The position numbers and the translations under genes were made by a program. From an uncultured Bacilli bacterium (lineage in GTDB: Bacteria > Bacillota_I > Bacilli_A > RF39 > UBA660): a stretch of DNA of 64,000 nt. Positions 1-36,943 of the stretch are shown one piece after another (position 1 is the stretch's first letter; each line of letters starts with the position of its first letter). The notes under the pieces are model-generated. The model saw only the letters and a program-made list of their open reading frames with translations, did no database searches and was not told the DNA's origin. The stretch spans positions 223-64,222 of the forward strand of contig CANRLP010000001.1 of NCBI GenBank assembly GCA_947631515.1, written 5' to 3'.

Positions 1-2328
1 TATAAAATTAAGTTTATCAACATCAAGATTTTTATTAACTATTATTTTATTATCACTAATCAACTTGATTAATTCATTAGGCAATCCATAATCCATCATG
101 TCTTGATTTACAGTATCACACATTCCATTTTCAAAAAACATTGCAATTTTATATGGATTTATATCATCAGGATTTATATTAATCACTTTATTTTTAGTAA
201 CAAAAAGTTTATATATGCATGCAAAGAAATTAAGATAATATGGTATTTTATATTGCATAACATCAGAAATAAATTTAAAAGTGTCATTATAAACTTTGTT
301 ATCGTTTATGCTCATATCACTATTAATATAACTTAATATCCATTTTTTTTCATCACTAATTAATCTAACTAACTTATCTTTATCGTTATTTAAATAATTT
401 TTTTTACTTATGTTATCAATAATATCCTGAATATGTTTTTTCTTATAATATAATATTTCTTTTATGTTAGTAAACGAATGTAACTTATATAATCCCTTCC
501 ATACAAATGATCCGTTTGATGAAAAAGGTCTTATTTCTCCAACCTTGGTTTGAAAGATATTAATATTTTGAGTTTCAAAAGCATATTTCAAAATATTAAA
601 AATTACTTCTAGACTTTCAGCAATATTATTCCTATCATCACTTATTATATTATCAATCAATTTTTTACAATTTAAAATTTCATTACTGTCCATGTTTTTA
701 AAATAGTTGTATAGAACAAGTTTCCACAATTTTGGAACATTTAATGCAATATTTAATTCTTGTTCAGACAAACATAAAGTTTTTTGTAATTGAATAATAT
801 CCTTTTTCCTATTCAATTCATAATCATTCAAGAATTCATCTTCTATCATATCAATTTCATAATCATCTCTAACTACATCAGATATTTCATAGTTAGGATT
901 ATTTAAAAATATATCTGCTTTTTTCGCTCTATCCAAAATATCATATATATTTTTATTTATGGCTAAAATATTACCAATTGGAGATTCACCAAATCTTCCC
1001 GCTCTACCCATAACATTCAGCAAATCAATATTTTCTAATTTAACCGATTTTGCAGTAAAAACGCTTGTTATTATTATGTTTTCTGCATTGCTATTTACAC
1101 CCTCAACAAATGAAGTTGTAACTAATAAACTTGATATAACTTTATCATTAAATAATCTAATTATTTCTTTCTTTATATATCTTGGAATTGGTGACATGTA
1201 TATTCCAATACCTTTTTCTAGCCCTTTAATTACTTCCCATACCTGTAAATTTTCTACAGTATAGTTATTACATAAATGCTTGTAAAAAATATTAAACCTA
1301 GGATTTTTATTCAGTATTCCACAATCATATTCACAATTATTAATAATTTCAGATGCTGTTGACGAATTGGGAATATATACAATATTTTGCTTTCCAATCA
1401 ATCCTTTTAAGATTTTAATAGTTTTAGTTGGTACATTATCATCCGATAAATAAGATGATTTATTGATTTTAAAGAAATTATTAAATTCTTTTTGAGTGCT
1501 TATACAATATAATTCATGATTAATATAATCTGTTTTTCTAATTATGCTTTTAATTCCATATTTGTCAACAAAATTTTTCATTGATGGAGTCAAACAGTAT
1601 GCATATGGAGACAAAAAAATACATTTAGAATTAGAATTTGCTACTAATTCTAGCGATTTTCTGAATTTGTAAGATCTATTATTAACAACATCCGAAACAT
1701 ACCTATTTCTTGCATTCACTATCTTATACATTTCATCCATAACTAATAAATCTATTTTAAAATCATGATAAATTGAATTAAACATTAAAAATCTCTCAGG
1801 AGTAAGTATTAATAAATTTCTACTAAAATAATCAATTCGTGGAATTGTTGAAATTTTATAATCTAAATTAAATTCTTTATTTAATCTTAAAAACTTAATA
1901 TATAATTCTTCAATAAGAGAATTAGTTGGAATTATATATATCACATTATTAAATTCTTGATAATTACAAATCAAAAATTCATTAACCAAACTCGTTTTAC
2001 CAAATGAAGTTGGTGCTGAAATAAGCATTTTATTATTATTTTTAATTTCATCTAACAATGAAAGTTGTTCTATATTTAAATAATTAAATTGCTTCGACTT
2101 AAAGCATCCCATAATAAGTGATAATTTATTTGAATCAGAAAATTGCAAATAATCAAATTTTAAATACTTATCAAATCCAAATAACATTCCATTGTTAATT
2201 ATCATCATGATTAAGTCACGATTTTCTTCCGGATTTAAAAGTAATACATTCAAATCATTTATTATTTTGTTGCTATCATTTGTTATTGAAAATTCGTTAA
2301 GATCATTTAATACTTGTAATCTATCCAT
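1..2328 (-). CDS. SF2 DExH-box helicase, HamB-like (candidate Hachiman defence helicase); N-terminus at 2328, C-terminus runs off the window
   Basis: I translated the whole minus-strand frame from ATG (2326-2328) to position 1 and found no stop (>775 codons). It is absent from the ORF track because no stop lies in the window. Motif I ISAPTSFGKT (~2000-2030), motif II LLVMDEMY (~1715-1740), motif V VTTSFVEGVN (~1100-1130), motif VI MGRAGRFG (~985-1010). The start overlaps the upstream gene by 8 nt. Confidence 0.8.
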   Translation of the reverse strand, partial: MDRLQVLNDLNEFSITNDSNKIINDLNVLLLNPEENRDLIMMIINNGMLFGFDKYLKFDYLQFSDSNKLSLIMGCFKSKQFNYLNIEQLSLLDEIKNNNKMLISAPTSFGKTSLVNEFLICNYQEFNNVIYIIPTNSLIEELYIKFLRLNKEFNLDYKISTIPRIDYFSRNLLILTPERFLMFNSIYHDFKIDLLVMDEMYKIVNARNRYVSDVVNNRSYKFRKSLELVANSNSKCIFLSPYAYCLTPSMKNFVDKYGIKSIIRKTDYINHELYCISTQKEFNNFFKINKSSYLSDDNVPTKTIKILKGLIGKQNIVYIPNSSTASEIINNCEYDCGILNKNPRFNIFYKHLCNNYTVENLQVWEVIKGLEKGIGIYMSPIPRYIKKEIIRLFNDKVISSLLVTTSFVEGVNSNAENIIITSVFTAKSVKLENIDLLNVMGRAGRFGESPIGNILAINKNIYDILDRAKKADIFLNNPNYEISDVVRDDYEIDMIEDEFLNDYELNRKKDIIQLQKTLCLSEQELNIALNVPKLWKLVLYNYFKNMDSNEILNCKKLIDNIISDDRNNIAESLEVIFNILKYAFETQNINIFQTKVGEIRPFSSNGSFVWKGLYKLHSFTNIKEILYYKKKHIQDIIDNISKKNYLNNDKDKLVRLISDEKKWILSYINSDMSINDNKVYNDTFKFISDVMQYKIPYYLNFFACIYKLFVTKNKVININPDDINPYKIAMFFENGMCDTVNQDMMDYGLPNELIKLISDNKIIVNKNLDVDKLNFI

Positions 2329-3217
2329 ATAATTTCACCATATTATTCTTTAATAAAACTGAATCATTGGTTGTTGGTATAAATACTATTTCAATACTAT
2401 AGTTCTTAATAGTAGTTAATCCAATGGTTTTATCAAATGTATCTATTATATCTTTGTAATATTTTTCTATTTCATCAGGTTTTCTATAATTGGATTGGAA
2501 AATTGCAAAATACACAAATTTAAAACTATAATCTAAGTCATTCATTATATCAATAAATTGTTCATTCTTTTGAGCTATTATTAAATTAATCTTATTTAAA
2601 CATTCAATAATACCTTCAGAATATGTTCTTTCCATTGAATCGCTTTTTTTCATTGCAAAACCACAGTAACTATTAATAATTTCTGAATTTAAATGGCCAT
2701 GCTCACCATTAATGTCCGAAATTAAATCGCTTTTAGCAGCTGACAGTGTTGAAACAAATTTTGCTTCTGATAGTACAATTTCTAACTTATCATTGTTTAA
2801 TGAGCAGCCAATACAATCAATTCCTTTAAATTCTAATTTATCTCTATATATACCTTTAGAAGCGTAACAAGCAAGAATTTTTTTAGAACAAACAATTCGA
2901 GTATAAAAATCTAATAATAATTCTCCAAAAACTCCACTGGTATTTACATCTTTTCTCTTTATGTCATTTTTCCATAAAATTTTTGATTTTTCTATTAAAA
3001 ATTCTTCTTCGACTTTGTAATATTTTAGCATACCATAACTATCTGCATAAAATGGTAAATACATATTAAATGTTTTAGTAAAATAAACTATCTCGTTATT
3101 ATAGTCATATGTATAAAGTTTACAATAGTTTCTATTTGATAATTGAATTTCTTTATAAAATAATAATTTTTTATAATTCTTTGTATAATAATTTAATAAT
3201 TCCCCATATACATCCAT
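2321..3217 (-). CDS. HamA-like (DUF1837-like) putative PD-(D/E)xK nuclease partner of the helicase
   Basis: 298-aa ORF directly upstream of the helicase, overlapping it by 8 nt. GGGAG RBS 8 nt before the ATG at 3217. Candidate nuclease triad GID...(x12)...LSEAK. The small-protein-plus-SF2-helicase architecture matches Hachiman. Domain identity not verified. Confidence 0.5.
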   Translation of the reverse strand: MDVYGELLNYYTKNYKKLLFYKEIQLSNRNYCKLYTYDYNNEIVYFTKTFNMYLPFYADSYGMLKYYKVEEEFLIEKSKILWKNDIKRKDVNTSGVFGELLLDFYTRIVCSKKILACYASKGIYRDKLEFKGIDCIGCSLNNDKLEIVLSEAKFVSTLSAAKSDLISDINGEHGHLNSEIINSYCGFAMKKSDSMERTYSEGIIECLNKINLIIAQKNEQFIDIMNDLDYSFKFVYFAIFQSNYRKPDEIEKYYKDIIDTFDKTIGLTTIKNYSIEIVFIPTTNDSVLLKNNMVKLYG

Positions 3218-3375
3218 ATTCGAACTCCCAAATGTAATTTATATATTATATTTTATCACAAATAATTTATATTTAATAATTTTATCTCGAAGAAGGTTAT
3301 TTTACTACGATGTTCTTTTTTACCTCCTGCATTTATGTGATTAGACACAACTATTACATCATTTCTCTTACCATA

Positions 3376-3603
3376 TTAATCTTGTATTCTTTTAGGCCTA
3401 ACATCAAGCTCTAACGTTTCATTATTAGTTCGAGATAATTTATTATCAATTCCTAATTGATTTAGTTGATTATGCATGTATTCACTAATCTTCAAAGTTA
3501 AATCTTTTTCTGTAATCCCGTTAGCTATTGTGCCGGGGTCTTCTCCTCCATGGCCACTGTCAATTACAACCTTTTTAGTTACTCTATCATCCATGTTTAT
3601 CAC
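3376..3603 (-). pseudogene. truncated N-acetylmuramoyl-L-alanine amidase (Amidase_3) fragment, 75 aa
   Basis: VIDSGHGGEDPG motif and following residues align to the N-terminal ~75 aa of CwlD-type amidases (compare the intact paralog at 6816-7475). The frame stops after ...ELDVRPKRIQD, where a ~200-aa catalytic domain should continue. Confidence 0.6.
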
Positions 3604-3739: not shown

Positions 3740-4828
3740 TTAACTAGCTGCTTCACTAAGTTCTATTGTAACTGTTTTTAATTCATTATTTCGATAAAAG
3801 GAAATGTTAACCTTATCACCAATATTATGTTTATATAATTGATATTTTAAATAAGCTAAACTACTAACATCATTATCTTCTATTTTAACGATTACATCGC
3901 CATTTTTTAAACCAGCTTTATCTGCAGGGCTATTTTTTTCAACACTTTCTATATATACGCCACTATCAATATCACTATTTAAAATATTCAAATCTGATAA
4001 ATTTATCATAGAAATTCCTAAATAAGGTCTTTCAATTTTTTTACCACTTTCTAAACTTTCTGCATATTTTAAAGCATCTTCAATAGGTATAGCAAATCCC
4101 ATACCTTCAATTGAACTACTGGCTAGTTTCATTGAAGTAATACCAATTATTTGACCATTAGAATTAGCTAAAGGTCCACCACTATTTCCTGAATTTATAG
4201 CAGCATCTGTTTGTAATACACTCATAACCCAATCGCTAACAGAAGAGTTTGTTAAACTTACCTCAACCAAACGATCTTTACCAGATAAAATCCCTCTAGT
4301 AACACTCCAAGAATAAGCACTACTATCTATAGGAGCTCCAACAGCAAATACTGTATCTCCAAGTCGAGTGGTCGAATTATCGCCAATTTCTGCTACACTA
4401 ATAATATTTTTACTATCTACAGCAAGAACTGCAATATCAGCATATTTATCACTACCTACAATTGTTGCTTCAACAGAAGATTGATTGGTAAATACTACTT
4501 TAACACTTGAACCACTTTCTATAACATGGTTATTAGTTAATATATAAGCTTTACTTCCCGCATCTTTATAAACAAAACCTGTTCCTGTAGCATATAAATT
4601 ACTGCCTTTATATGTCTCAACCGTAACAACGGCATCATAAACCTTTTCAACGGCATCCGCAATACCGGTTTCAGTTACTGTTACATCTTTAACTGTTTTA
4701 GTTACATTATTAGTTACTGTAGTTGGGTAATATCTAACAAGAGCAAACATTGCTAAAGCTCCAACGAAAAAAGCAATTAACAAAACTACTCCTGATTTCA
4801 TTTTATTTTCTGATTTATATTCTTTCAT
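3740..4828 (-). CDS. htrA: HtrA/DegP-family serine protease (TM anchor, trypsin domain, PDZ)
   Basis: N-terminal TM helix, GNSGGPL catalytic serine motif, C-terminal PDZ-like region. Likely ATG at 4828 with AAAGGA RBS. The ORF-track start at 4837 is TTG. Confidence 0.8.
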   Translation of the reverse strand: MKEYKSENKMKSGVVLLIAFFVGALAMFALVRYYPTTVTNNVTKTVKDVTVTETGIADAVEKVYDAVVTVETYKGSNLYATGTGFVYKDAGSKAYILTNNHVIESGSSVKVVFTNQSSVEATIVGSDKYADIAVLAVDSKNIISVAEIGDNSTTRLGDTVFAVGAPIDSSAYSWSVTRGILSGKDRLVEVSLTNSSVSDWVMSVLQTDAAINSGNSGGPLANSNGQIIGITSMKLASSSIEGMGFAIPIEDALKYAESLESGKKIERPYLGISMINLSDLNILNSDIDSGVYIESVEKNSPADKAGLKNGDVIVKIEDNDVSSLAYLKYQLYKHNIGDKVNISFYRNNELKTVTIELSEAAS

Positions 4829-4829
4829 C

Positions 4830-5759
4830 TTAATCAATCCTTTCTATATCCATAAAATTAGCAGGGAATCCCATTTTATCCATAACTTTTCCAATGCTAA
4901 TACTTTTTAACATTCCTTCTAACATACTAACCTCATAATCAATTTCTTTAATCATTTCTGAAAAATCATCTTTACGTAACATTTGTTTTAAAATAATTAT
5001 CAACGAAAATAAATCATCTTTACCATAAATATATTCACCATCCATTTTCGGAATACCTAAACGTTCATGATATTTTGTGTCATTAATTTGGCGTTGAACA
5101 CGATGGTCAAATAAAATTTCTTCATGAGCACATAAATTTCGATAATTAGATAATATTGGTAAATAAAGAGCTAAATCATCAGCATCAACATTAAAAAAAT
5201 TGGCAATTTCTTTTTGATCATTTGGTTTCAAAATAATATATAATTCCCCTACTATTCCAAAAGATAATACTTTTACAGCAATCCAAAGAGGAATATAACC
5301 ATAATTCATTTGATAATGCGCTGTGGCTGTATGAATGGAGGCATTAGCTCTTATTTGGCGTTTCATTTTTTTGATCAAATCATTTACCTGCCGATATTTA
5401 TCATTACTTCGATTAAAATTGGCTGGATTTAAATAATTACTTTCTTTAATTCCATAAGTTCGAGATAAATGATAGGAAATAATACTTTTTAAATTATTTT
5501 CAATTATCAATAAATTTTTAAATAAAATATTACGTATATGACGATCAAAATTAAATACCCCATATAATTCTCGAAAAGTTGAACCCGTAATAAAATGCTT
5601 TTCAGCTGGTGATTTCATAAATAAAGAGCGATACCCATTTATAAAGAAATAATTTTCACGTAAAAGTATCTCTTTAGTTAATGTTTCATCTTCGACAATA
5701 AGACCCTTATTTTTTAATATTTCCACCTGTTCATCTAACGTTTTGAATATCTTATTCAT
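4830..5759 (-). CDS. Abi_2 (AbiD/AbiF-like) abortive infection protein
   Basis: N-terminal FKTLDEQVEILKNKGLIVEDE...YFFINGYRSLF and central IPLWIAVKVLSFGIVGELY match the AbiD/AbiF family consensus. The stop abuts the htrA RBS. Confidence 0.7.
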   Translation of the reverse strand: MNKIFKTLDEQVEILKNKGLIVEDETLTKEILLRENYFFINGYRSLFMKSPAEKHFITGSTFRELYGVFNFDRHIRNILFKNLLIIENNLKSIISYHLSRTYGIKESNYLNPANFNRSNDKYRQVNDLIKKMKRQIRANASIHTATAHYQMNYGYIPLWIAVKVLSFGIVGELYIILKPNDQKEIANFFNVDADDLALYLPILSNYRNLCAHEEILFDHRVQRQINDTKYHERLGIPKMDGEYIYGKDDLFSLIIILKQMLRKDDFSEMIKEIDYEVSMLEGMLKSISIGKVMDKMGFPANFMDIERID

Positions 5760-15371: not shown

Positions 15372-16892
15372 TTATTTTTCTATTTCAATTCTTTGGAACA
15401 ATATTTCTGGTTCATTTAAATCATAAATAGTATTTTCATTAAAGACAAAAATTTCATCTTTTGTATTTAATTGCTTCATAATATTTTCGCTTGTCGTTGG
15501 TAAATATGGATACAAGAAAACAGCACATACTCTTATAGCTTCGAGCAAATTATAAAGTACAGTTTCGAGTCTATCTTTTTTACTTTCCTCTTTAGCTAAA
15601 ATCCAAGGGGTTGTTTCGTCAATATATTTATTACTTCTTCTTAATACTTCAAAAATACAATCTATAGATGCCCCTATTTCTAAATTATTCATTTTTTCTT
15701 CAAGCTTGCTTGATAATTCATTAACTAGTGTTAAAAGTTCTTCATCAACATTGTCTTTAATACTTTTATTTTCAATATGACTATTAAAATATTTTTTCGC
15801 CATTGATATAGTTCTATTTACCAAATTTCCTAAAATATTAACTAAATCGCCATTTATTCTTTCTTCTAATAATTCTTTAGTAAATATACCATCTGAAGCA
15901 AAAGGAATTTCATGTAATAAATAGTATCTTACTGCATCAACACCATATTCATTAACTAAATCATCAGCATAAATAACATTTCCTTTTGACTTACTCATTT
16001 TACCATCTGCCATGATTAACCAAGGATGTCCAAATACTTGTTTAGGTAGAGGTAAATCCAAACTCATTAAAAAGCAAGGCCAATAAATTGTATGAAAGCG
16101 AATAATATCTTTTCCAATCAAATGTAAATCAGCTGGCCACCAAGAATTAAATTCTTCACTACTACCATCTGGATCATAACCAATATTGGTAATGTAATTA
16201 GTAAGAGCATCTAACCATACATAAACAACATGTTTTTTATCAAAATCAACAGGAATTCCCCAATCAAAAGAAGTTCTTGATACACATAAATCTTGTAATC
16301 CTAGTTTAATAAAATTATTAATCATTTCATTTTTTCTTGATTCTGGTTGAATAAATTCCGGATGATTTTCTATATATTCTATTAATTTATCTTGATATTT
16401 ACTTAATTTAAAAAAGTAAGCTTCTTCCTTTTTTTCTTGAACTTCTCTTCCACAATCCGGACACTTTCCTTGAACTAATTGTGATTCTGTCCAAAAAGAT
16501 TCACATGGAGTACAATAAAGTCCTTTATATTCTCCTAAATAAATATCACCTTTATCATACATTTTTTTAAATATCTTTTGAACTATTTTTTCATGATTTT
16601 CATCAGTTGTTCTAACAAATTTATCATAACTGGTATTCATAATATCCCAAATATTTTTAATTTCTTTAGATACTTTATCAACATATTCTTTAGGAGTTAC
16701 TCCCGCTTCTTTTGCTTTTAATTCAATTTTCTCACCATGTTCATCTGTACCAGTTTGAAAATAAACATCAAATCCCATTAATCTTTTATACCGTGCAATA
16801 CTATCAGCTAAAACAATTTCATAAGTATTTCCTATATGAGGTTTGGCAGAAGTATAAGCAATAGCAGTAGTTATATAATATTTTTCTTTCAT
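15372..16892 (-). CDS. metG: methionine--tRNA ligase (short form)
   Basis: PHIGN(HIGH-like), CxxC zinc knuckle CPDCG, KMSKS. Confidence 0.95.
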   Translation of the reverse strand: MKEKYYITTAIAYTSAKPHIGNTYEIVLADSIARYKRLMGFDVYFQTGTDEHGEKIELKAKEAGVTPKEYVDKVSKEIKNIWDIMNTSYDKFVRTTDENHEKIVQKIFKKMYDKGDIYLGEYKGLYCTPCESFWTESQLVQGKCPDCGREVQEKKEEAYFFKLSKYQDKLIEYIENHPEFIQPESRKNEMINNFIKLGLQDLCVSRTSFDWGIPVDFDKKHVVYVWLDALTNYITNIGYDPDGSSEEFNSWWPADLHLIGKDIIRFHTIYWPCFLMSLDLPLPKQVFGHPWLIMADGKMSKSKGNVIYADDLVNEYGVDAVRYYLLHEIPFASDGIFTKELLEERINGDLVNILGNLVNRTISMAKKYFNSHIENKSIKDNVDEELLTLVNELSSKLEEKMNNLEIGASIDCIFEVLRRSNKYIDETTPWILAKEESKKDRLETVLYNLLEAIRVCAVFLYPYLPTTSENIMKQLNTKDEIFVFNENTIYDLNEPEILFQRIEIEK

Positions 16893-16899
16893 TTTCTTT

Positions 16900-17185
16900 C
16901 CTCTTTTCTATTTACCATTATTTTTATTTAATTGCATTACAAACATAGTTCCCATTCTAAAAAATAAAAAAAATCATAAACTAAGGGCGAAAAAACCGCG
17001 GTACCACCTTAATTCATGATTTTATCATGCACTTTAAATTCGTAACGAGAATAACTCGATTTAACTCCAGAACCATCTTCATATTTCATAATCTACTTGT
17101 TTTCATCAACCACAAGCTTTCTATAAGATTATTAAAATATTACTCTTTCTTTCTCCGTTAATTATTTGTATAGTAACACAAAAAA
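16900..17185 (-). promoter_or_regulatory. T-box riboswitch leader of metG
   Basis: Minus-strand AATTAAGGTGGTACCGCGG (revcomp of 16996-17013) matches the T-box consensus AATTAGGGTGGTACCGCG. ~300-nt leader with AGAGA-like and AUG-containing Stem I candidates, and a T-rich tract after the motif. Confidence 0.8.
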
Positions 17186-27151: not shown

Positions 27152-27159
27152 CACCATAA

Positions 27160-27250
27160 AAAAAGTGCACACGAATAGGGATTGATATGGCTGCTGTCTT
27201 CCAACTCTGACCAGATTACAATATATCCGTTGCACTTTGTAATGATAACA
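27160..27250 (-). ncRNA. ffs: signal recognition particle RNA (small 4.5S type)
   Basis: Minus-strand CUGGUCAGAGUUGGAAGACAGCAGCCA matches SRP domain IV (CAGGUCAGGUCCGGAAGGAAGCAGCC). Closing helix AAAGUGCA/UGCACUUU. Position between gyrA and tadA-dnaX, as scr is in Bacillus. Confidence 0.7.
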
Positions 27251-27344: not shown

Positions 27345-29789
27345 TTAATCTATTTCTTCATTTTCTATAGATTCTTCAGTTTTATCAACCAAACTTAAAG
27401 TAGAAACTTGTTGATTATCTTTTAAATTTATTAAACGTACACCTTGAGTTACCCGGCCTAATACATTAATTTGATCTAATGGAACTCTTATAATCATTCC
27501 AGTATCGGTTACTATAATCAAATCATGATTTTCTTTTGCTAGTTTAAATGCTGCCATATCACCATTTTTATCAGTAATATTTAAAGCTTTGACACCTTTA
27601 CTTCCTCTCTTAGTTTGTCGATATTCACGAACATTTGTTTGCTTGCCATAACCTTTTTTCGTTACTATAATCAAAGAATCATTATCAGTAGCTTTTTCGG
27701 CACCAATACAAGTACTTCCTTCTAAAGTTATACCTTTAACTCCACTAGCAGTTCGCCCCATAACTCTTACTTCATCTTCGGAAAATTTAACCATTCTACC
27801 ATTGCTAGATCCTAATAAAATTGAATCATTTCCTGTAGTCTTTTGAACTGATATTAATTCATCATTATCTTTTAAACTAATACAAATTTTACCGCTTGTT
27901 CGAATATTTTCGAATTCGCTAATAGCAGTTCTTTTTACAATTCCTTGTTTTGTTGCAAAAAGTAAATATTTTGCAGAATCTTCTCTTTGAATACTTAAAA
28001 TAGAATTAATTTTTTCTTCTTTATCAATTTGAAGTAAGTTAATAATAGGTAATCCCTTAGATTGACGACTAAATTCAGGAATTTCATAACCTTTTAATCT
28101 ATAAACCTTTCCTTTATTTGTAAAGAACAAAATGTAATCATGAGTAGATAATGATTCTAAATGTTCAACAAAATCTTCTTCATTTGTATTCATACCCTTA
28201 ACACCTACACCACCACGTCTTTGTGATTTAAATGTATCAGCTGTTGTTCTTTTAATATAACCATTATGTGTAAGAGCAATCATTATATCTTGTTCTGGAA
28301 TTAAAGATTCATCTTCAATAAATTCAATTGCTGACATATCAATATTTGTTCTTCTTTCATCAGCGTATTTATTTTTAATTTCAATCAATTCTTCACGTAT
28401 GATGGCCAATACTTTTTCTTCGCTAGCCAAAATACTACGATATTCATCAATAGCCTTCAATAAATCAGCAAGTTCATTTTCAATTTTATCTCTTTCTAAA
28501 CCAGTTAAACGACGTAATCTCATATCTAAAATAGCTGTAGCTTGAATATCATCAAGTCCAAATCTACTCATTAATTGTTCTTTTGCCACTACATCTGTTT
28601 CAGCTTCTCTAATTATTTTAATTACTTCATCTAAATTATCTAAAGCAATTTTCAAGCCTTCTAAAATATGAACACGCTCTTCAGCTTTATTTAAATCATA
28701 TTTTGTACGACGAATAATAATTTCTTTTTGATAATCAATATATTTAACTATTATATCTTTAAGAGGCAATATTTTTGGACTTTTTTGATCAATCATTAAG
28801 AAATTAATACCATAAGTTGTTTGAAGTTGAGTATATTTATATAAATTATTAAGTACTACATTAGCATTAGCATCCTTTTTTATGTAAATAACTACTCGTA
28901 CGGGATTTTCTAAATTTGATTCCTCATGAATGTCACTAATTCCATCAATAATTTTATCACGAACTAATTCGCCAATTCTTGTTTGAAATTCGGCTTTATT
29001 TACTTTATAAGGAAGAGCTGTAACAATAATTCTTGTCTTTCCATTAACTTCTTCTATATTCGCTGTACCTCGAATAGTTATTGAACCTCTACCAGTTTCA
29101 TAAGCTTTCTTAATTCCACTATTTCCTAAAATACTAGCACCTGTTGGAAAATCTGGACCTTTAATATATTGCATAAGCCCATCTGTATCAATATCAGGAT
29201 TATCTATATATGCAACACATCCATCAACAACCTCTCCTAAATTATGAGGTGGAATATTTGTAGCCATTCCAACTGCAATACCCATTGTTCCATTAACTAA
29301 TATATTAGGAAATCTACTTGGTAAAATAGTTGGTTCATTTTCTGTTTCATCAAAGTTTGGAACAAAATCAACAGTATTTTTATTTAAATCTCGAACCATT
29401 TCCAAAGATAGTTTTGATAACCGAGCTTCGGTATAACGCATGGCTGCGGCACCATCACCATCCATATTACCAAAATTTCCGTGACCATCAACTAACATGT
29501 GGCGATAAGTAAAATTTTGGGCCATTCCAACCATTGCTTCATAAATGGAAGAATCACCATGAGGATGATATTTACCCATAACATCTCCAACTACTCTCGC
29601 ACTCTTACGATGAGGTTTATCGGGAGTATATCCTGCTTCAAACATTGAATACAAAATACGACGATGTACCGGTTTTAATCCATCACGTAAATCGGGGATT
29701 GCACGAGCAACAATAACACTCATGGAATAACGAATAAAAGAATTTTTGAATTCTGATACAATATTATTTTCTACAATTTTATCCATCAA
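27345..29789 (-). CDS. gyrA: DNA gyrase subunit A
   Basis: [15 protein letters not shown], active-site YxxT region (MRYTEARL), C-terminal beta-pinwheel repeats. Confidence 0.97.
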
Positions 29790-29798
29790 CTACACCTC

Positions 29799-31718
29799 CT
29801 AAATATCCAAATCCTCAGCTTCATGGCCATGTTCTTCAATATATTGTTTTCTTGGTAAAACATCATCACCCATAAAATCACTAATGATTTTATCAGCTTC
29901 CATCGCATCTTCAACCGTAACTCTTCTTAAAATACGATTACTTATATGCATTGTTGTATCTCTTAAATCTTCTGCTTCCATTTCACCTAAACCTTTAAAA
30001 CGTTGAACAATTGGCTTAGCATTACTTGGTAAAGTAGTTCGATAAGACTCTAATTCTTCTTCTGTTTGAAAATATTTATTAGTTTTACCATAAGTTATAC
30101 GGAATAATGGTGGTTGAGCAACATATACATACCCACCTTCAATAATTGGTCTAAAAAAGCGATAAAATAATGTTAATAACAAAATTTGAATGTGAGAACC
30201 ATCAACATCAGCATCGGTCATGATAATTATTTTATGATATCTTAATTTACTTACGTCAAAATCATCGCCGATACCTGTACCAAAAGCCGTAATCATAGTT
30301 CTAATTTCTTCATTAGATAATGCTCTATCAAGACGAGCCTTTTCTACATTTAAAATTTTACCACGTAAAGGCAATATAGCTTGAGTTTGAGGAATTCTAG
30401 CTAGTTTAGCATTCCCTCCGGCACTATCTCCTTCGACAATAAATATCTCCGAAATAGAAGCATCTTTACTTGTACAATCAGCAAGTTTTCCTAACGTATT
30501 TATAGAATCTAAAACTGTTTTTCTTCTTGTAATTTCCCGAGCTTTTTTAGCAGCAAGACGAGCATGTAAAGCCGTCATAGACTTATCAACAATTAATTTT
30601 GCTTCTTCAGGATTTTCCATTAAAAATCTTTCAAAACCTTCACTAAACACATCGTCAGCTATTTTTCTTACTTCACTATTACCAAGTTTCGTTTTAGTTT
30701 GACCTTCAAATTGAGGATCAGGATGTTTACAAGAAATAATCATTGTAAGACCTTCCCTAACATCTTCTCCTGTTAAAGCATCATCATTATCTTTTAAAAT
30801 TTTGGCATTTTTAGCATAATTATTAATAATTCTAGTTAAAGCTCTTTTTACTCCGTCTTCGTGAGTTCCACCTTCATAAGTATTAATGTTATTAGTAAAA
30901 GAATAAAGATTAGCATTATAAGAGTCATTGTATTGCATAGCAACTTCTATTTCAATACCATCCTCAGTTCCTTCAACATATATAACTTCATCATGAAGTA
31001 CTTTTTTATTTTTATTAAGCATTTTTACATATTCAATAATTCCACCATGATACAAAAATTCATCTTTTTTATCTTCTTCACGTTCATCAATTAAAACAAT
31101 TCGAATTCCTTTATTCAAAAAAGCAAGTTCTTGTAAACGTTTAGCTAATGTATCGTAATTATAAATTGTTGTTTCTGTAAAAATTTCTGGATCAGCTTTA
31201 AAAGTTACGGTTGTTCCAGTTCTATTTTCTTCACAAGTTCCAATTTCTTTCAAAGGTTCAACCGGATGGCCACCATTTTCAAATTTTTGATAAAAAATCT
31301 TACCTTCCCTGTAAATAGTAACTTCAAGCCATGTTGATAAAGCATTAACGACACTAGCTCCAACACCATGTAATCCTCCACTAACTTTATAACCACCGCC
31401 GCCAAATTTTCCACCAGCATGCAAAACGGTAAATATTGTTTCAACAGTAGATAAGCCAGTTTTTTGATTGATTCCTGTTGGCATACCTCTTCCATCATCT
31501 TTAACTGTAATTGTATTGCCTTTACCAACAACGACTTCTATATCGTCACAATATCCTGCTAAAGCTTCATCAATAGCATTATCAACAATTTCCCAAACTA
31601 AATGATGCAATCCTTTTTCACTAGTTGTACCAATATACATTCCCGGACGTTTTCTAACAGCTTCTAAGCCCTCTAATACTTGAATATCACTATCATCATA
31701 ATGTTTATTTTCGTCCAT
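29799..31718 (-). CDS. gyrB: DNA gyrase subunit B
   Basis: GHKL ATPase, Toprim [17 protein letters not shown]. Confidence 0.97.
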
Positions 31719-32812
31719 TATTCTACCTCCTCTAATAAACCATTCGAAATAAAAAACTTTTTATAATTTTTATCTTTTAATAAAAATGATAATTTTTCTA
31801 TTTCCGTTGTTGTTATAAATGTTTGAATATCTTGTTCAATAAATTGCAAAATATTTTTGATTTTTTCAACATCTAATTCACTTAATAAATCATCTAATAT
31901 TAATATGGGAGTAACATTTTTCTCTTTTTTAAAAATACATATTTCACTAAATTTCCAAGCAATTACCGCATTTTTTTGTTGACCTTCAGATCCATAATCT
32001 TTTAAATCATATTCATCTAAATATAAATGAAAATCATCATGATGAATACCAATATTGGTTTTGCCAAATGCTAAATCTCTTTTCAAATTTTTATTATATA
32101 AGTTAATTAATTCCTTTCGAGATTTATTTTGATAATCACTATCATATTGAACTACCAAATCCCCATCTAAAGCTATTTTTTTATAAATATCTTTTAAATA
32201 TAAGTTAAGATTTTTTAAATAATTTTCGCGCATTTGATAAATTTCTAAGCCTGAATCAATTAATTTTTCCGTAATAACTTGTAAATAAGTCGTCATAGCA
32301 TTACCATTTAAATACATTTGTTTTAAATAAGCATTACGAATTTTCAGAAGTTTATTATAATCATTTAATTTTTTTAAATACTCAATATGAAGTTGAGACA
32401 AACCAATATTCAAATATTTTCGACGAATACTGGGAGTATCTTTAATCATTTTTAAATCATTCGGATTAAATAAAACTACATTAATTTTCGAAACATAATC
32501 ACTAATTCTTGTTATCTTATTATTATTAATTTTAACTTTTTTACCATCATTATTAATAATAATCTTGAAAGTAGTTTGAAATTCATCATTTAACATACCT
32601 TCTATTTTAGTCAAATTTGTTCCGGATTTTATTAAGGTTTTATCATTTATTTGGCGAAAACTTCTTGTAATTGCAAGTACATATATTGCTTCTACTAAAT
32701 TTGTTTTACCACTACCATTTTTACCATAAATAATATTTAAATGATTATCAAAGGTAACTGCTAATTGATTATAATTTCGAAAATTTAGTAATTTCAAATT
32801 CTGTATTTGCAT
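31718..32812 (-). CDS. recF: DNA replication and repair protein RecF
   Basis: GKNGSGKTN Walker A, C-terminal signature and Walker B. Confidence 0.95.
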
Positions 32813-32844
32813 TTTTGGCCTCTTTTACGCTCATATAATAAAAT

Positions 32845-32874
32845 AATAGGTATTTATGTACTCCTATACCTATT
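32845..32874 (-). terminator. hairpin after comK-like gene (AATAGGTAT...ATACCTATT, 9-bp stem)
   Basis: Inverted repeat in the 77-nt gap between the comK-like stop and recF start, followed by a T-rich tract on the minus strand. Confidence 0.35.
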
Positions 32875-32889
32875 AAAATTATAACATAT

Positions 32890-33363
32890 TTAAGCATTTT
32901 TTTGTATCTTTTTTTCAAGTTTTCGGCCATTTAAGACAGATTCTAAGCGCGTAGCCCTCATAACTTGATTATCCACAATTCCATATGTGGTATCTAATGA
33001 TAATTTATCGCCATTTTTAAATACTACTATTAAATGATTTTTTTCATAATAGTAGCGATCAATACTACTAAGTCTTAACCACGAGCATTCTGGAAGTCTA
33101 GGAGAAGTTGTGGGAAAAAATATTATACTATTGCTTTCTTCAACTATAATGGGAGCTTTGTAAGAAACTCCAATTAAATTTTCTGTTCCTTTTTTTCTTC
33201 CAGCTAAACTACTTCCAAAATATTCACAACTTTCTTCCATAATTTCATTAGCACACTTATTAACAATGAAATTAGAATCTTCTTCATATACTCGTGTTTT
33301 ATTTCCCATAGCATATAAAGCAACGGTATTATTATTAATTTCATAATTTTCCATCCATTTCAC
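32890..33363 (-). CDS. comK: ComK-family competence transcription factor homolog
   Basis: YEINNNTVAL, FGSSLAGRKKGT, KAPIIVEESNSIIFFPTTSPRLPECSW align to B. subtilis ComK (FGSSYAGRKAGT; KPPIMVDPSNQIFLFPTLSSTRPQCGW). AGGGGG RBS. Confidence 0.75.
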   Translation of the reverse strand: MKWMENYEINNNTVALYAMGNKTRVYEEDSNFIVNKCANEIMEESCEYFGSSLAGRKKGTENLIGVSYKAPIIVEESNSIIFFPTTSPRLPECSWLRLSSIDRYYYEKNHLIVVFKNGDKLSLDTTYGIVDNQVMRATRLESVLNGRKLEKKIQKNA

Positions 33364-33409
33364 CCCCTAACTTTGGAAAATTGTTTATTACCTTAACAGA
33401 TAAATATTA

Positions 33410-33445
33410 AATTTTTTGTCGAAAAAAAAGCTTACTAACAATTTA
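33410..33445 (-). terminator. intrinsic terminator after dnaN
   Basis: CTTACTA-acaatt-TAGTAAG hairpin followed by T8 on the minus strand. Confidence 0.6.
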
Positions 33446-33452
33446 GTAAGTT

Positions 33453-34571
33453 TTATTTATTAAATATTGGTAAAACTAGTTGAATTAAAGATTCATCTGT
33501 TAAAGATTTTATAATTATTGGTTTAACATCCGTATTTAGTAAAATTAATATTTCTTCCTCTTTTATAGCTTTTAATGCTTCTAACATATAGCGAGAACTA
33601 AAGTAAATTTCAATATTAGAACTAGCATCTGTATCTACAGTCAATTTTTCTTCAACTTTTCCAATTTCGCTAGCTGATGAAGAAATTTGCATCTCTTTAT
33701 TTTCAATCTTCATTTTAATTATATTTTTATCTTTTCCTTGAGTTAATAAGGCTGCTCTATCTACACTTGCCATAAATTCATCTTTATTCATTTTTATTAA
33801 AATAGCAAATTCAGTTGGAATTAAATTAGAAGTATTAGGATAAGTTCCAGAAAGAAGATTTGTTTGAAATTTTATATTTTTATATTTAAACAACACTTTA
33901 TTACTAAAAATGTGCATTTCAACATTTTCATCATCCGTAATTATTTTTTCTAATTCCATAATATTTTTACCAGGTATAACAATATTTATATCGTTTGTAA
34001 CTGGGGTTGATAACTTAATATTTTTTTTAGCTAAACGATAAGAATCAGTTGCTATAAATATTAAAATATCTCCGGTAATAGTGACATTTATACCTGTTAA
34101 TAGCGGCCGTAATTCTTGATTAGATATAGCAAAAACAGTTTGATTAATTAATGACTTTAAGACATCTCCTTTTAAAATAATTGGATCTTTATGTTCATCT
34201 ATTCTTAAATTTGGATAATCATTAGCATCTAAACAATTCAAATTATATTGGTTATTTTCTGTATAAATTCTAATTTTTAAACCATCTATAACTTCAAAGT
34301 GAATAATATCACTAGGCATTTTTCTTATTATTTCTAATATATATTTACTTTGAATAACTATTGTTCCTGTACTTTCAATACTTTTAATTTCTTTATTACT
34401 AATAAAGGCATTAATCGTAAGTTCACTATCACTAGCAGTTAAAGATAATCCTTCATTGGTTAAATCAAATTTAATTCCATTTAAGACTGGTATTACATTC
34501 TTAGTCGATACTCCTTTTATTACATGATTTAAATTTTCTAATAAAATGTTTTTATCAATTGTAAATTTCAT
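33453..34571 (-). CDS. dnaN: DNA polymerase III beta sliding clamp
   Basis: 372 aa with three-domain beta-clamp architecture, immediately after dnaA. Confidence 0.95.
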   Translation of the reverse strand: MKFTIDKNILLENLNHVIKGVSTKNVIPVLNGIKFDLTNEGLSLTASDSELTINAFISNKEIKSIESTGTIVIQSKYILEIIRKMPSDIIHFEVIDGLKIRIYTENNQYNLNCLDANDYPNLRIDEHKDPIILKGDVLKSLINQTVFAISNQELRPLLTGINVTITGDILIFIATDSYRLAKKNIKLSTPVTNDINIVIPGKNIMELEKIITDDENVEMHIFSNKVLFKYKNIKFQTNLLSGTYPNTSNLIPTEFAILIKMNKDEFMASVDRAALLTQGKDKNIIKMKIENKEMQISSSASEIGKVEEKLTVDTDASSNIEIYFSSRYMLEALKAIKEEEILILLNTDVKPIIIKSLTDESLIQLVLPIFNK

Positions 34572-34726
34572 TGTTCATTCCTTCTTTCTTTTTATTAATT
34601 TATTTTATTATGTTTATAATGCTGTTGATAAAGTGAATAACTCTATTTTTTCTTTATTTTATCGTATTTTAGCTATTTTTTTATTAGTGCATAAGCAAGT
34701 TTATTTTAAGTTAATTATCAACAATA
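34572..34726. promoter_or_regulatory. dnaA-dnaN intergenic DnaA-box cluster / AT-rich unwinding region (oriC part 2)
   Basis: TGTTGATAA (~34644) and TTATCAACA (~34706) boxes in a very AT-rich 155-bp spacer. Confidence 0.55.
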
Positions 34727-36118
34727 TTAAATTCTATTCTTAATTTCATTAATTTCAAATTCTATTTTTTTATTTTCCTTAATCTCCTTTTCAATTTTTT
34801 CATAAGCATGAATTACTGTTGAATGATCTCTTCCGCCAAATTCAAAACCTATTTTAGGAAAAGTTTCTTCGGTTAGCATTCTTGCTAAATACATGCCAAT
34901 TTGTCGTGGATAAGCAATTTTATTACTCCTTTTCTTACCTTTCAAATCTTCAACTGTTAAATTGTAATAACTTGCTACAGCTTGTTGAATATTTTGAATA
35001 CTATTTTCTGAGTAAATGTTATTACCTATATAGTCTTTAATTGCTTCATTGGCAAATTCTAAATCTATTTTATCTGGTACCATCATAGCTGTATAAGCCA
35101 TTAATCTATTTAAAGTTCCTTCTAGAAATCTTATATCATTAGGACAACAATTAGCAATAAATTCAATAACTGTTTCATCTAATTTGTCTGCTATACTGGT
35201 ATTTTTAATTTTTTGTTTTATGATTCGACAACGTAAATCTAAGTCTGGAGGATAAATATTAACAGGTAATCCCCACATAAAACGGCTTTGTAATCTTTCT
35301 TCTAATAATTTTAAATCCATAGGACTTCGATCAGAACTAATAATAATTTGTTTATTAGCTTGATGTAAAATATTAAAAGTATAAAAGAATTCTTGTTGGG
35401 TTTTTTCGGCCCCTACTAAGTATTGAATATCATCAATAATTAAGACATCAACATTTCGATATTTGTTTTTAAAATTATTGGCATAATCAATGGAATTCGG
35501 CCCTTTTTCAACATAAGCAATTCCCGTAAAATCATTCATAAACATATCACTTGTTGTGTATAAAACTTTTTTATTGGTCGTTTGAGTTATAAAGTTTCCA
35601 ATGGCATGCATTAAATGAGTTTTACCTAATCCACTTTTTCCATATATAAATAAAGGATTATGTAATTTTCCAGGTTGTTCAGCTACTGCCATCGCCGCAA
35701 TTTTAGCCAAACGATTTGTATCACCTACTACAAAGTTATCAAAATTAAGATTTGGCTTTAAATTACTTTCCCAAACTTCATTCTGCTCTTCTTTTTCTTT
35801 GGTTTGTGGATAAGTATCTATAGGAGTATTTTTATTTTCGATTTCATCTTCTAAAACAAATTTAATATCATAATTTATATTGGTTATTTTTAATAAAATA
35901 TCTTCAATTAATGAATAATAATTGTCACTTAAAATATTTCGGTGAATATCCATAGGGACTTGAATAGTTATTAAATTATTTTCAATGCTAATTAATTTTA
36001 AGTCATTAAACCAAGCATAATAAGATGCTGAATTTATCTCATTTTTAATATTTTCTAAAAATTTATTCCATATTTCTTCAACTAACAAATCCATCACCCC
36101 GCTTGTTATTATTACCAA
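34727..36118 (-). CDS. dnaA: chromosomal replication initiator DnaA
   Basis: AAA+ GKSGLGKTHL, box VII, C-terminal DNA-binding signature. Confidence 0.97.
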   Translation of the reverse strand: MVIITSGVMDLLVEEIWNKFLENIKNEINSASYYAWFNDLKLISIENNLITIQVPMDIHRNILSDNYYSLIEDILLKITNINYDIKFVLEDEIENKNTPIDTYPQTKEKEEQNEVWESNLKPNLNFDNFVVGDTNRLAKIAAMAVAEQPGKLHNPLFIYGKSGLGKTHLMHAIGNFITQTTNKKVLYTTSDMFMNDFTGIAYVEKGPNSIDYANNFKNKYRNVDVLIIDDIQYLVGAEKTQQEFFYTFNILHQANKQIIISSDRSPMDLKLLEERLQSRFMWGLPVNIYPPDLDLRCRIIKQKIKNTSIADKLDETVIEFIANCCPNDIRFLEGTLNRLMAYTAMMVPDKIDLEFANEAIKDYIGNNIYSENSIQNIQQAVASYYNLTVEDLKGKKRSNKIAYPRQIGMYLARMLTEETFPKIGFEFGGRDHSTVIHAYEKIEKEIKENKKIEFEINEIKNRI

Positions 36119-36449
36119 TTTAATTGTAGCTCAAACCACTTAAATTGAAAAGTCTAAAATAATTATTCACTCTAATTCACATGTTATCAACAGCAAATTT
36201 TTCCTTATTCTATCTGATTTTAGAATATTTATCAACATTATCCACAAATTTTCAAATAATTTTTATGCACATTGTTTATATAATTTATCAACAATAATGT
36301 TAATATGTTGATAAAGACTAAATTTCCTTTAATTTAATGATTAGATATAAACATTTTTATAAACTAGTGTATTTTTCAAACATCTTCTTGACTTTTTTTA
36401 TGCACTAATATTATAATAAGGAAGCTTAGATTTAAAGGAGGAAGAAAAA
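36119..36449. promoter_or_regulatory. oriC DnaA-box cluster between dnaA and rpmH
   Basis: Perfect TTATCCACA at 36238-36246. TTATCAACA at 36184-36192, 36229-36237 and 36285-36293, and TGTTGATAA at 36306-36314. The coding strand switches here. Confidence 0.75.
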
Positions 36450-36575
36450 ATGTTTAGTACTTATCACCCAAATAAAAGAAAAAAAGCTAAAAAACATGGA
36501 TTTTTTGCACGTAAAGAAACTAAAATTTTAAAAAATAGAAGAAAAAAAGGTCGTAAAAATTTAATAACTAAATAA
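36450..36575 (+). CDS. rpmH: 50S ribosomal protein L34 (41 aa; below ORF-track size cut-off)
   Basis: MFSTYHPNKRKKAKKHGFFARKETKILKNRRKKGRKNLITK. GGAGG RBS at 36436-36440. Confidence 0.9.
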   Translation: MFSTYHPNKRKKAKKHGFFARKETKILKNRRKKGRKNLITK

Positions 36576-36598
36576 CCACTAATTATGTGGTTTTTTTA
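36575..36598 (+). terminator. hairpin plus T-run between rpmH and rnpA (terminator/attenuator)
   Basis: ACCAC-TAATTAT-GTGGT followed by T8. The ORF-track GTG start for rnpA (36587) lies inside this hairpin. Confidence 0.45.
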
Positions 36599-36616
36599 TT
36601 AAAAAGGATGATTTTA

Positions 36617-36943
36617 ATGAAAAAAAAAGAAGTTGTTAAAAAAAAGGAAGAATTTAATAATATAATTAAAACTTGTCCTTATAAAAAAAATAAATATTTT
36701 ACTATATATATAAGGAAAAGAGAAAATGCAATTGCTCGTTTTGGTCTAGCAATAAGTAAAAAAGTTGGAATTGCTGTTGTTCGTAATCGTTTAAAAAGAC
36801 AATTACGAGCTATAATTGATAAAAATAAAGGTATCTTTTCAAATAGTTGTGATTATATTATAATGATTAAGAAAGATTGTGTTAATTCATCTTTCCAAAT
36901 TTTAGAAAAAAATTTAATTAATTTATTAAAGGAGACAAAATGA
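36617..36943 (+). CDS. rnpA: ribonuclease P protein component
   Basis: MKKKEVVKKKEEFNNIIK... matches the RnpA N-terminus (MKK.NRLKKNEDFQKVF). Start chosen at ATG 36617 with AAGGA RBS. Confidence 0.85.
   Translation: MKKKEVVKKKEEFNNIIKTCPYKKNKYFTIYIRKRENAIARFGLAISKKVGIAVVRNRLKRQLRAIIDKNKGIFSNSCDYIIMIKKDCVNSSFQILEKNLINLLKETK

What the first reader, a model, noticed from the sequence alone, without database searches (positions are those of the whole stretch)
1..3217. Hachiman-like two-gene module: HamA-like putative nuclease overlapping an SF2 DExH helicase at the window edge
The 298-aa protein (2321-3217) carries a PD-(D/E)xK-like signature (GID...LSEAK). Its stop overlaps by 8 nt the start of a large SF2 helicase with motifs I, II, V and VI. 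That helicase is >775 codons with no stop inside the window, and the ORF track does not list it. A small DUF1837-like effector followed by an overlapping SF2 helicase is the defining architecture of the Hachiman antiphage system. The module sits in an accessory patch next to an Abi gene and a truncated amidase, away from core synteny. It may instead be an unclassified helicase-nuclease defence pair.
Basis: partly seen in the sequence, partly recalled or inferred. Interest (0 to 1): 0.7.

Follow-up and report, generated by a model that had tools for sequence, protein, structure and literature searches.

The report
Hachiman defence pair on mobile island
The two overlapping genes at the window edge are a genuine but ordinary Hachiman (HamA nuclease plus HamB helicase) anti-phage system, and they ride as swappable cargo at the end of a small mobile island inserted into a cell-wall amidase gene of an uncultured gut bacterium.

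Summary

Both genes are under purifying selection (dN/dS 0.15-0.20). The pair is absent from this locus in 80 related species. This is a type I(-A) Hachiman, a new member of a known kind.

- Motif II reads DEMY, not DExH.
- The neighbouring Abi-like gene is core synteny (69 of 80 relatives), not accessory.
- The "truncated amidase" is the integration site itself.

The LysM-amidase gene is cut exactly after ...NHINAGG in many species, and different defence cargo follows each time. A complete 8.0-kb sibling island carries Lamassu in the slot where hamAB sits here. It also carries a large serine recombinase and ends at the amidase 3' half. A recombinase in this window's own island is inferred, because that end lies outside the window.

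The parts
2321..3217 (-). hamA: 298-aa DUF1837 / PD-(D/E)xK nuclease effector. Catalytic-motif codons: D134 = 2816-2818, E151 = 2765-2767, K153 = 2759-2761.
1..2328 (-). hamB: Ski2-like SF2 helicase, 776 of about 792 codons (3' end outside the window). Motif I 1993-2016, motif II DE 1732-1737, motif V 1093-1119, motif VI 988-1008.
2321..2328 (-). 8-nt overlap ATGGATAG of the hamA stop and the hamB start (translational coupling).
   Evidence: The same 8-nt overlap is seen in L002-L005 and in the divergent pair of L059.
3225..3229 (-). GGGAG ribosome-binding site 7 nt upstream of the hamA ATG.
   Evidence: Read from the sequence. Conserved in L001-L004.
3276..3321 (-). Island-end arm: the first ~46 nt of the inserted element next to the crossover. 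It is homologous to the same position in L002 and in the Lamassu-carrying island of L089. The cargo cassette starts after it.
3317..3322 (-). Left junction of the island (attL-like). The amidase coding sequence ...CACATAAATGCAGGAGGT ends here and island sequence begins.
   Evidence: The same break point after ...SNHINAGG occurs in window, L002, L008, L010, L023, L024, L025, L059 and L089, whereas L015, L019 and L027 read on with G(D/E)GAE.... L015 and L023 are collinear at 92% nt identity exactly up to this point.
3322..3603 (-). 5' stub of the interrupted LysM-type N-acetylmuramoyl-L-alanine amidase gene, carrying an in-frame TAA at 3376-3378 (pseudogene).
   Evidence: Pfam Amidase_3 57.2 bits for residues 12-73, matching model positions 1-63 of 174. 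Full-length orthologues of 405-471 aa with LysM repeats occur in L015, L018, L019, L028 and L086. Stop codon seen.

Best explanation
The region encodes a two-gene type I Hachiman anti-phage system. It corresponds to type I-A in the scheme of PMC11914072: a stand-alone DUF1837 HamA with an intact nuclease motif, plus HamB. SHOWN HERE: family membership by profile and by fold, intact catalytic and helicase motifs, translationally coupled operon structure, purifying selection, and absence from the same locus in related species. Also shown is the location at the left end of foreign DNA inserted at a recurrent break point in the LysM-amidase gene downstream of htrA. INFERRED from the characterised E. 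coli systems (PMC12278908, PMC11914072): HamB binds HamA through its N-terminal helical domain and keeps the nuclease restrained while the complex surveys intact dsDNA. When a free 3' ssDNA end or damaged/replicating phage DNA enters the helicase, ATP hydrolysis ratchets HamB and activates or releases HamA (D134/E151/K153, metal-dependent). HamA then degrades phage and host DNA indiscriminately, aborting the infection. INFERRED from a complete sibling element (L089): hamAB is an exchangeable cargo cassette of an ~8-9 kb island moved by a large serine recombinase (LSR). The recombinase gene and the amidase 3' half would lie beyond the window start.

For: Operon: an 8-nt overlap, and HamA-HamB adjacency is kept in every relative inspected at 29-98% HamB identity.

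Selection: dN/dS is 0.20 for hamA and 0.15 for hamB against 97.5%-identical copies.

Accessory and mobile nature: no HamA or HamB at this locus in 80 related species, apart from one divergent Hachiman in L059 at the same site. A 97.5%-identical cassette in L002 sits behind a very different amidase stub, meaning a different host background. The break point after NHINAGG is shared by at least nine loci with different cargo. L089 shows the full element: stub, then LmuA/LmuB in the hamAB slot, MTase and REase fragments, a 554-aa LSR, and the amidase 3' half; it is 8,001 bp between junctions. The sequence just after hamB in L003 is 86% identical to the sequence just after lmuB in L089.
Confidence: 0.9

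Rival explanations
1. A housekeeping Ski2/Hel308/RecQ-type repair helicase that happens to follow an unrelated small gene.
Against: HamB-specific profiles match end to end at E = 1e-62 to 1e-65. The NCBIfam 'ATP-dependent DNA helicase' equivalogs score 39.9 and 21.8 bits against cut-offs of 891 and 887. The partner is a bona fide HamA by profile and fold. The pair is missing from 80 related species at this locus and sits inside inserted DNA.
Confidence: 0.01
2. A decaying, non-functional relic of a Hachiman system. The neighbouring amidase stub and the MTase/REase fragments of this island family are relics.
For: The island backbone is littered with gene fragments: an in-frame stop in the amidase stub and MTase and REase fragments. 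No clear promoter was found.
Against: Both ORFs are full length relative to homologues, with 100% query coverage to 792-aa proteins. All catalytic and helicase motifs are intact. dN/dS is 0.15-0.20. A GGGAG RBS and the coupled start are conserved.
Confidence: 0.05
3. A different Hachiman-related architecture: an AbpAB-like (type I-B) system in which DUF1837 is an inactive scaffold and another nuclease does the cutting, or a PADLOC type II system with a third gene.
Against: HamA is only 298 aa with no N-terminal Cap4 or other domain, and it keeps D134/E151/K153, whereas AbpA's DUF1837 lacks them (PMC11914072). The best PADLOC hits are HamA1/HamB1. In near-identical copies the next gene after hamB is a convergent MTase fragment, not a co-directional third gene.
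Confidence: 0.04
4. The module serves mainly the island rather than the host, for example as an addiction/stabilisation or anti-competitor-MGE function, with phage defence secondary.
For: It is the cargo nearest the island end in an element family whose only constant genes are a recombinase and small unknown ORFs. Hachiman is triggered by DNA damage or free DNA ends in general, not by phage-specific cues (PMC12278908).
Against: The equivalent slot in sibling islands holds other classical anti-phage systems: Lamassu, Ietas, R-M, AbiE and a retron-type RT. Experimental Hachiman systems protect against many phages (PMC12278908, PMC11914072). Nothing here tests addiction.
Confidence: 0.1

Closest known systems
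Type I-A Hachiman, HamAB (E. coli ECOR31, PDB 8vx9/8vxy, PMC12278908; E. coli DEC14B, PMC11914072)
   Different: Only 10-11% identity to the solved HamA. HamB is about 792 aa against 1174 aa for the ECOR31 chain, and it matches that chain by sequence only around motifs V-VI (E = 4e-5). Motif II is DEMY, not DEGH. The host is an AT-rich uncultured gut Bacilli lineage.
AbpAB / type I-B Hachiman of E. coli K-12 prophage CP4-57 (PDB 8zue; PMC11914072, PMC10732053)
   Different: AbpA carries an N-terminal Cap4 nuclease and a catalytically dead DUF1837. Here there is no extra domain and the DUF1837 active site is intact and invariant.
SCC-like cassettes moved by Ccr large serine recombinases that carry anti-phage defences in staphylococci (PMC11470126)
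   Same: Small non-conjugative cassettes with a large serine recombinase, inserted site-specifically in a conserved chromosomal gene. They carry diverse defence systems and are sometimes in tandem. Both amidase sites are occupied in L002.
   Different: The target is the coding sequence of a LysM-amidase, which is cut in two, rather than the 3' end of orfX/rlmH. The host lineage differs. The recombinases were not compared with Ccr. For the window's own copy the recombinase is inferred, not seen.
Sibling island in L089 carrying Lamassu (LmuA-Cap4 + LmuB)
   Same: Same break point in the amidase gene, a homologous ~45-nt island arm, and the same MTase fragment after the cargo (96% aa with P0157; 86% nt between the L003 tail and L089).
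   Different: The two-gene slot holds Lamassu (LmuA 1.1e-75, LmuB 1.4e-180) instead of Hachiman. The amidase gene lies in a different chromosomal neighbourhood there.

Membership tests
Hachiman (HamAB), type I / I-A | Small protein belongs to DUF1837 / HamA (PF08878) | tested here: met
   Pfam 38.6 bits against gathering score 25, E = 1.4e-9, model positions 24-229 of 230. Four PADLOC HamA models hit, best 4.6e-7. 29 of 32 homologue clusters carry PF08878.
Hachiman (HamAB), type I / I-A | HamA has the HamA fold (PD-(D/E)xK core plus HamB-binding insertions) | tested here: met
Hachiman (HamAB), type I / I-A | Intact D...E-x-K catalytic motif in HamA and no extra N-terminal effector domain (I-A as opposed to I-B/C/D) | tested here: met
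   D134, E151 and K153 are invariant in 22 sequences. The protein is 298 aa with one Pfam domain. Definition taken from PMC11914072.
Hachiman (HamAB), type I / I-A | Partner is a HamB-type Ski2-like SF2 helicase with complete ATPase/helicase motifs | tested here: met
Hachiman (HamAB), type I / I-A | HamB has the N-terminal alpha-helical domain that binds HamA, which other Ski2-like helicases lack | tested here: inconclusive
Hachiman (HamAB), type I / I-A | hamA directly upstream of hamB in one operon | tested here: met
   8-nt overlap. The same order holds in all relatives inspected.
Hachiman (HamAB), type I / I-A | HamA and HamB form a complex, show ATP- and DNA-end-dependent nuclease activity, and protect against phages | not testable with these tools
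   Known for the E. coli systems (PMC12278908, PMC11914072). Only inferred here.
AbpAB-type (type I-B) Hachiman | HamA carries an N-terminal Cap4 nuclease domain and a DUF1837 lacking the catalytic residues | tested here: not met
   298 aa, no second domain, and the catalytic triad is present.
Hachiman type II (PADLOC HamA2/HamB2 plus a third gene; recalled from memory of PADLOC's scheme) | Best matches to HamA2/HamB2 models and a co-directional third gene | tested here: not met
   HamA1/HamB1 models score best: 4.6e-7 against 9.8e-5, and 4.6e-65 against 4.3e-50. In 97.5%-identical copies the next gene is a convergent C5-MTase fragment.
Housekeeping Hel308/RecQ/DinG helicases | Reaches a curated equivalog cut-off and is conserved across related genomes | tested here: not met
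   39.9 bits against a cut-off of 891. Absent from the locus in 80 related species.
Large-serine-recombinase integrative island (SCC-like cassette) | Foreign DNA bounded by a precise junction in a conserved target gene, with empty sites in relatives | tested here: met
   Junction after ...AATGCAGGAGGT. Intact genes in L015, L019, L027 and others. L015 and L023 are collinear at 92% up to the junction.
Large-serine-recombinase integrative island (SCC-like cassette) | Element encodes a large serine recombinase and ends at the other half of the target gene | tested here: inconclusive
   Met in the sibling L089 (LSR 554 aa, attR, amidase 3' half). L023 has an LSR with Resolvase + Recombinase + Zn_ribbon_recom domains, 54% identical to that of L089. 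For the window itself the distal part lies outside the sequence and longer contigs were not found.

The most novel reading that the evidence does not exclude
The LysM-amidase gene of this group of uncultured gut Bacilli is a dedicated landing pad with at least two recombinase-specific sites, one after the GHG codons and one after the NAGG codons, plus a third insertion site in the first LysM repeat. The elements that land there are a family of very small (~8 kb) large-serine-recombinase cassettes. Their only substantial cargo is a plug-in defence module next to the attL end: Hachiman here, a second Hachiman lineage in L059, Lamassu in L089, Ietas in L025, R-M, AbiE or a retron-type RT elsewhere. 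The module is exchanged between a conserved ~45-nt island arm and a conserved C5-methyltransferase gene fragment. This would be an SCC-like system for shuffling immunity in a reduced-genome, uncultured lineage. The short MTase fragments might act as the homology handle for cargo exchange.
Probability: 0.5. Interest if true: 0.45.

Novelty: new member of a known kind. Interest (0 to 1): 0.3.

Why it matters
As a Hachiman system, this adds little. The family is found in more than 5% of prokaryotic genomes (PMC12278908), its mechanism has been worked out in E. coli, and standard tools (Pfam, PADLOC) recognise both genes. Two points are modestly useful. First, it is a clean example of a compact clade (HamA ~300 aa, HamB ~795 aa) that is abundant in gut Bacillota. 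Its helicase is nearest to AbpB, yet its DUF1837 nuclease is active and unfused. That makes it a natural intermediate for asking how the Cap4 fusion and DUF1837 inactivation arose. Second, the context gives a concrete, testable picture of how defence modules move in an uncultured, genome-reduced gut lineage. Small serine-recombinase cassettes target a cell-wall amidase gene, and Hachiman and Lamassu occupy the same slot in sibling elements. It is also a caution for annotation: an Abi_2/AbiD hit beside a defence system is not evidence of a defence island, because here it is a core gene.

Tried and rejected
- The promoter/terminator scan is uninformative in this AT-rich DNA: 43 sites against 39.6 expected, and no terminator.
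- Attempts to extend the contig beyond the window start failed. Exact look-ups of HamA and of the Abi-like protein returned only 1.8-4.1 kb contigs, and cluster look-up gave no accession or name.
- Close relatives of the cassette were sought on sequenced plasmids, phages and IMG/VR viral contigs. Only distant helicases of at most 30% identity turned up, and no HamA relative. There is therefore no evidence for a phage or plasmid vehicle.
- I looked for inverted-repeat symmetry between the two island arms of L089, as expected for a serine-recombinase attP. It gave only 20 of 36 matches, so I make no claim.
- The hairpin motif AACTTC..GAAGTT seen after the recombinase gene in L023 is absent from the window.
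- The idea that the Abi_2 gene, the PLC-like gene and the second amidase form an accessory patch was rejected by the synteny table.
Full report
OBSERVATION. ORF 2321-3217 on the minus strand encodes 298 aa. The minus-strand frame starting at the ATG at 2328 runs 776 codons to base 1 without a stop. The two genes share the 8 nt ATGGATAG. The region is about 23% G+C, so a stop codon is expected every ~10 codons. Open frames of 298 and 776 codons have chance probabilities of about 1e-14 and 1e-37. The quoted motifs exist at G132-I-D134 and S150-E-A-K153. One detail is wrong: helicase motif II reads M-D-E-M-Y, so the protein is not a DExH helicase in the strict sense.

WHAT THE TWO PROTEINS ARE. 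The 298-aa protein matches Pfam HamA/DUF1837 (PF08878) at 38.6 bits, above the gathering score of 25 and over almost the whole model. It also matches four PADLOC HamA models. In an alignment of 22 homologues at 32-69% identity, D134, E151 and K153 are invariant, together with G95, G98, E99, D103, E129, G132, D168 and H175. This is the D-E(x)K motif that defines the HamA nuclease. Mutating its E and K residues abolishes defence in E. coli ECOR31 (E138/K140, PMC12278908) and in DEC14B (E150/K152, PMC11914072).

The helicase matches PADLOC HamB1 profiles at 4.6e-65 (residues 90-758 on profile positions 108-737 of 767) and at 1.2e-62 (residues 4-771). Its best solved relative by sequence is the Hachiman helicase AbpB (8zue_B, 4.9e-17). 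PolQ and Mtr4 follow at about 1e-7, and ECOR31 HamB (8vx9_B) at 4e-5. The NCBIfam 'ATP-dependent DNA helicase' equivalogs score 39.9 bits against a cut-off of 891.

Relatives at 98% identity are 792 aa, so the window lacks only DEYQKLMLKEFIEVML and the stop.

IS IT LIKELY FUNCTIONAL? Both ORFs are full length relative to homologues. A GGGAG ribosome-binding site precedes hamA (3225-3229), and the coupled start of hamB is conserved. Against three 97.5%-identical copies from other samples, dN/dS is 0.20 for hamA and 0.15 for hamB. HamA-HamB adjacency is kept in every relative inspected, from 98% down to 29% HamB identity. No promoter or terminator could be called in this AT-rich DNA.

MECHANISM (inferred from the characterised systems, not tested here). 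HamB holds HamA through its N-terminal helical domain and restrains it while scanning intact dsDNA. Entry of a 3' ssDNA end triggers ATP hydrolysis and a ratchet movement that activates or releases HamA. HamA then degrades phage and host DNA, which aborts the infection (PMC12278908). HamA-only DUF1837 proteins with the intact motif are the majority class, type I-A (PMC11914072). The present pair fits that class. Its helicase is nearer to AbpB (type I-B) than to ECOR31 HamB, but its HamA has no Cap4 fusion and keeps the catalytic residues that AbpA has lost.

The window is core chromosome. It holds dnaA, dnaN, gyrB and gyrA at 27.3-36.1 kb and a class B RNase P RNA, as in Bacillota. A scan of one genome per species with the HtrA protein (3740-4837) returned 80 loci. 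They come from uncultured 'Bacilli / Tenericutes / Mycoplasma sp. CAG / Clostridium sp. CAG' MAGs, with best identity 76%. A tblastn table shows that truA, rplM, rpsI and a CwlD-like amidase recur upstream of htrA across these relatives, with the PLC-like gene in roughly half of them, and that the Abi_2/AbiD-like gene sits directly upstream of htrA in 69 of 80 species at 56-75% identity. In the window its 3' end overlaps the TTG-start htrA ORF by 8 nt. The 'Abi gene' is therefore a core gene here, not a marker of an accessory patch. HamA and HamB, by contrast, are found in none of the 80 loci, except for a divergent pair in L059.

THE TRUNCATED AMIDASE IS THE INSERTION SITE. In L015, L018, L019, L028 and L086 the gene downstream of htrA is a 405-471-aa amidase with LysM repeats. 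In the window and in L002, L008, L010, L023, L024, L025 and L059 it stops making sense at exactly the same place, after ...SNHINAGG. At the DNA level the shared sequence ...CAYATAAATGCNGGAGGT is followed by at least four unrelated sequence classes. L015 and L023 are sister species that are collinear at 92% nucleotide identity precisely up to this point and unrelated after it. What follows the junction is defence cargo each time:
- L059: a second Hachiman lineage (HamA at 40.1 bits, HamB1 at 8.7e-81, again with an 8-nt overlap).
- L025: IetA/IetS plus Fic- and HipA-like genes.
- L023: a D12 MTase with TdeIII endonuclease, an Mrr-like gene, an AAA_13 ATPase and a large serine recombinase.
- L008: AbiEi/AbiEii, a type IIG enzyme and PDC-M30A.
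- L010: DUF6119, Fic and type I R-M.

In the window the stub (3322-3603) also has an in-frame TAA at 3376-3378.

A COMPLETE SIBLING ELEMENT. In near-identical copies, hamB is followed by a convergent C-terminal fragment of a C5 DNA methyltransferase. All 177 relatives of that fragment are similarly short, at 57-119 aa. One of them, 96% identical, lies on a 277-kb contig (L089) that shows a whole island. In order it has:
- the amidase stub ...NAGG|GKGFCGKLTFFEKM*;
- LmuA (Cap4 nuclease, 1.1e-75) and LmuB (1.4e-180), in other words Lamassu, in the slot where the window has hamAB;
- the MTase fragments, a restriction-enzyme fragment and an 81-aa ORF;
- a 554-aa large serine recombinase and a 254-aa ORF;
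- ...CATCAGGTGGC|GATGGTGCTGAAG, continuing into the amidase 3' half with LysM repeats.

The distance between junctions is 8,001 bp. The first ~45 nt of the island are homologous between window, L002 and L089. The sequence immediately after hamB (L003) is 86% identical to the sequence immediately after lmuB (L089). So the two-gene defence module is an exchangeable cassette in a shared backbone.

The recombinases of the two islands at this site (L089, L023) are 54% identical. The recombinase of an island at a second site in the same gene (L007, after ...DSGHG) is only 29% identical to them. In L002 the same Hachiman cassette (97.5% nt) sits behind an amidase stub that is unalignable at the DNA level and is itself cut at that second site. 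That indicates horizontal transfer into another host and tandem occupancy. The closest described analogue is the SCC-like cassettes moved by Ccr serine recombinases that carry defence systems in staphylococci (PMC11470126). For the window's own island the recombinase and right end are inferred, because they lie outside the sequence and longer contigs could not be retrieved.

VERDICT. The added value lies in three things: the corrected context (core Abi_2 gene, amidase as target), the evidence that the module is under selection and horizontally mobile, and the identification of a small serine-recombinase island family with a plug-in defence slot. Interest is modest (0.3). The island-family reading would deserve about 0.45 if confirmed.

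Noticed in passing
window 4830-5759 (-): The Abi_2 / AbiD-like gene (Pfam 136.6 bits; PADLOC AbiD 5.7e-56) is conserved directly upstream of htrA in 69 of 80 related species at 56-75% identity. In the window its 3' end overlaps the htrA ORF by 8 nt. An 'abortive infection' family member behaving as a core, operon-linked gene of a whole lineage is unexplained.
   Followed up: partly
L007 11155-11200 and 19790-19830; L002 40-90: There is a second insertion site in the same amidase gene, after the codons ...D-S-G-H-G. L007 has an 8.6-kb island there with a retron-type reverse transcriptase (RT_VI 8.2e-47), an HTH_36 protein and a 542-aa large serine recombinase. The right-end junction peptide FW(I/T)FPIP(P/A)HGG is shared by L007 and L002.
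   Followed up: partly
L007 20396-20450; L027 14028-14090 and about 18440: There is a third break point in the first LysM repeat of the amidase (GD..F(L/M)GNNEY). In L027 an inverted copy of GGGAATAATGAGTAT lies about 4.4 kb away, suggesting a transposon with terminal inverted repeats.
   Followed up: no
just outside window position 1 (seen in L002 3694-3786, L003 3400-3606); L089 9663-10279; L097 4708-5055: Short C-terminal fragments of C5 DNA methyltransferase (57-119 aa; 177 cluster representatives, all short) recur at the edge of defence cassettes. They lie after hamB, after lmuB, and directly upstream of hamA in Ruminococcus bicirculans. One representative also carries a Resolvase domain. 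Whether they are relics of a decayed R-M module or a recombination handle is unresolved.
   Followed up: partly
L023 20760-21068: Directly after the large serine recombinase gene there is a run of ~28-nt imperfect palindromes of the form AACTTC...GAAGTT. The motif was not found in the window and was rare in the other loci.
   Followed up: partly
window 3376-3378 (-): An in-frame TAA lies inside the amidase stub (..RIQD*YGKRND..). It is also present in the 99.8%-identical contig L001. The stub is therefore a decaying pseudogene, although stubs in other species remain open.
   Followed up: yes
window 27345-37896: This is the replication-origin neighbourhood: gyrA, gyrB, dnaN and dnaA on the minus strand, then yidC on the plus strand from 36940. 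The Hachiman island lies about 31 kb from dnaA.
   Followed up: partly
window 16980-17164, 27156-27241, 55301-55641: A T-box leader lies upstream of a methionyl-tRNA synthetase gene (15372-16892). There is also a small SRP RNA and a class B RNase P RNA. No tRNA genes occur in the 64 kb.
   Followed up: no
L006 1-12361; L097/L098 1-14391: More distant members of the same HamAB clade (57% and 40% HamB identity) sit in classical defence islands. L006 has NERD, BglII R-M, MazG-like and SLFN-like helicase genes. L097/L098 have BsuBI/PstI R-M, dynamin-like GTPases, a NACHT-like ATPase, recombinase fragments and a reverse transcriptase.
   Followed up: no
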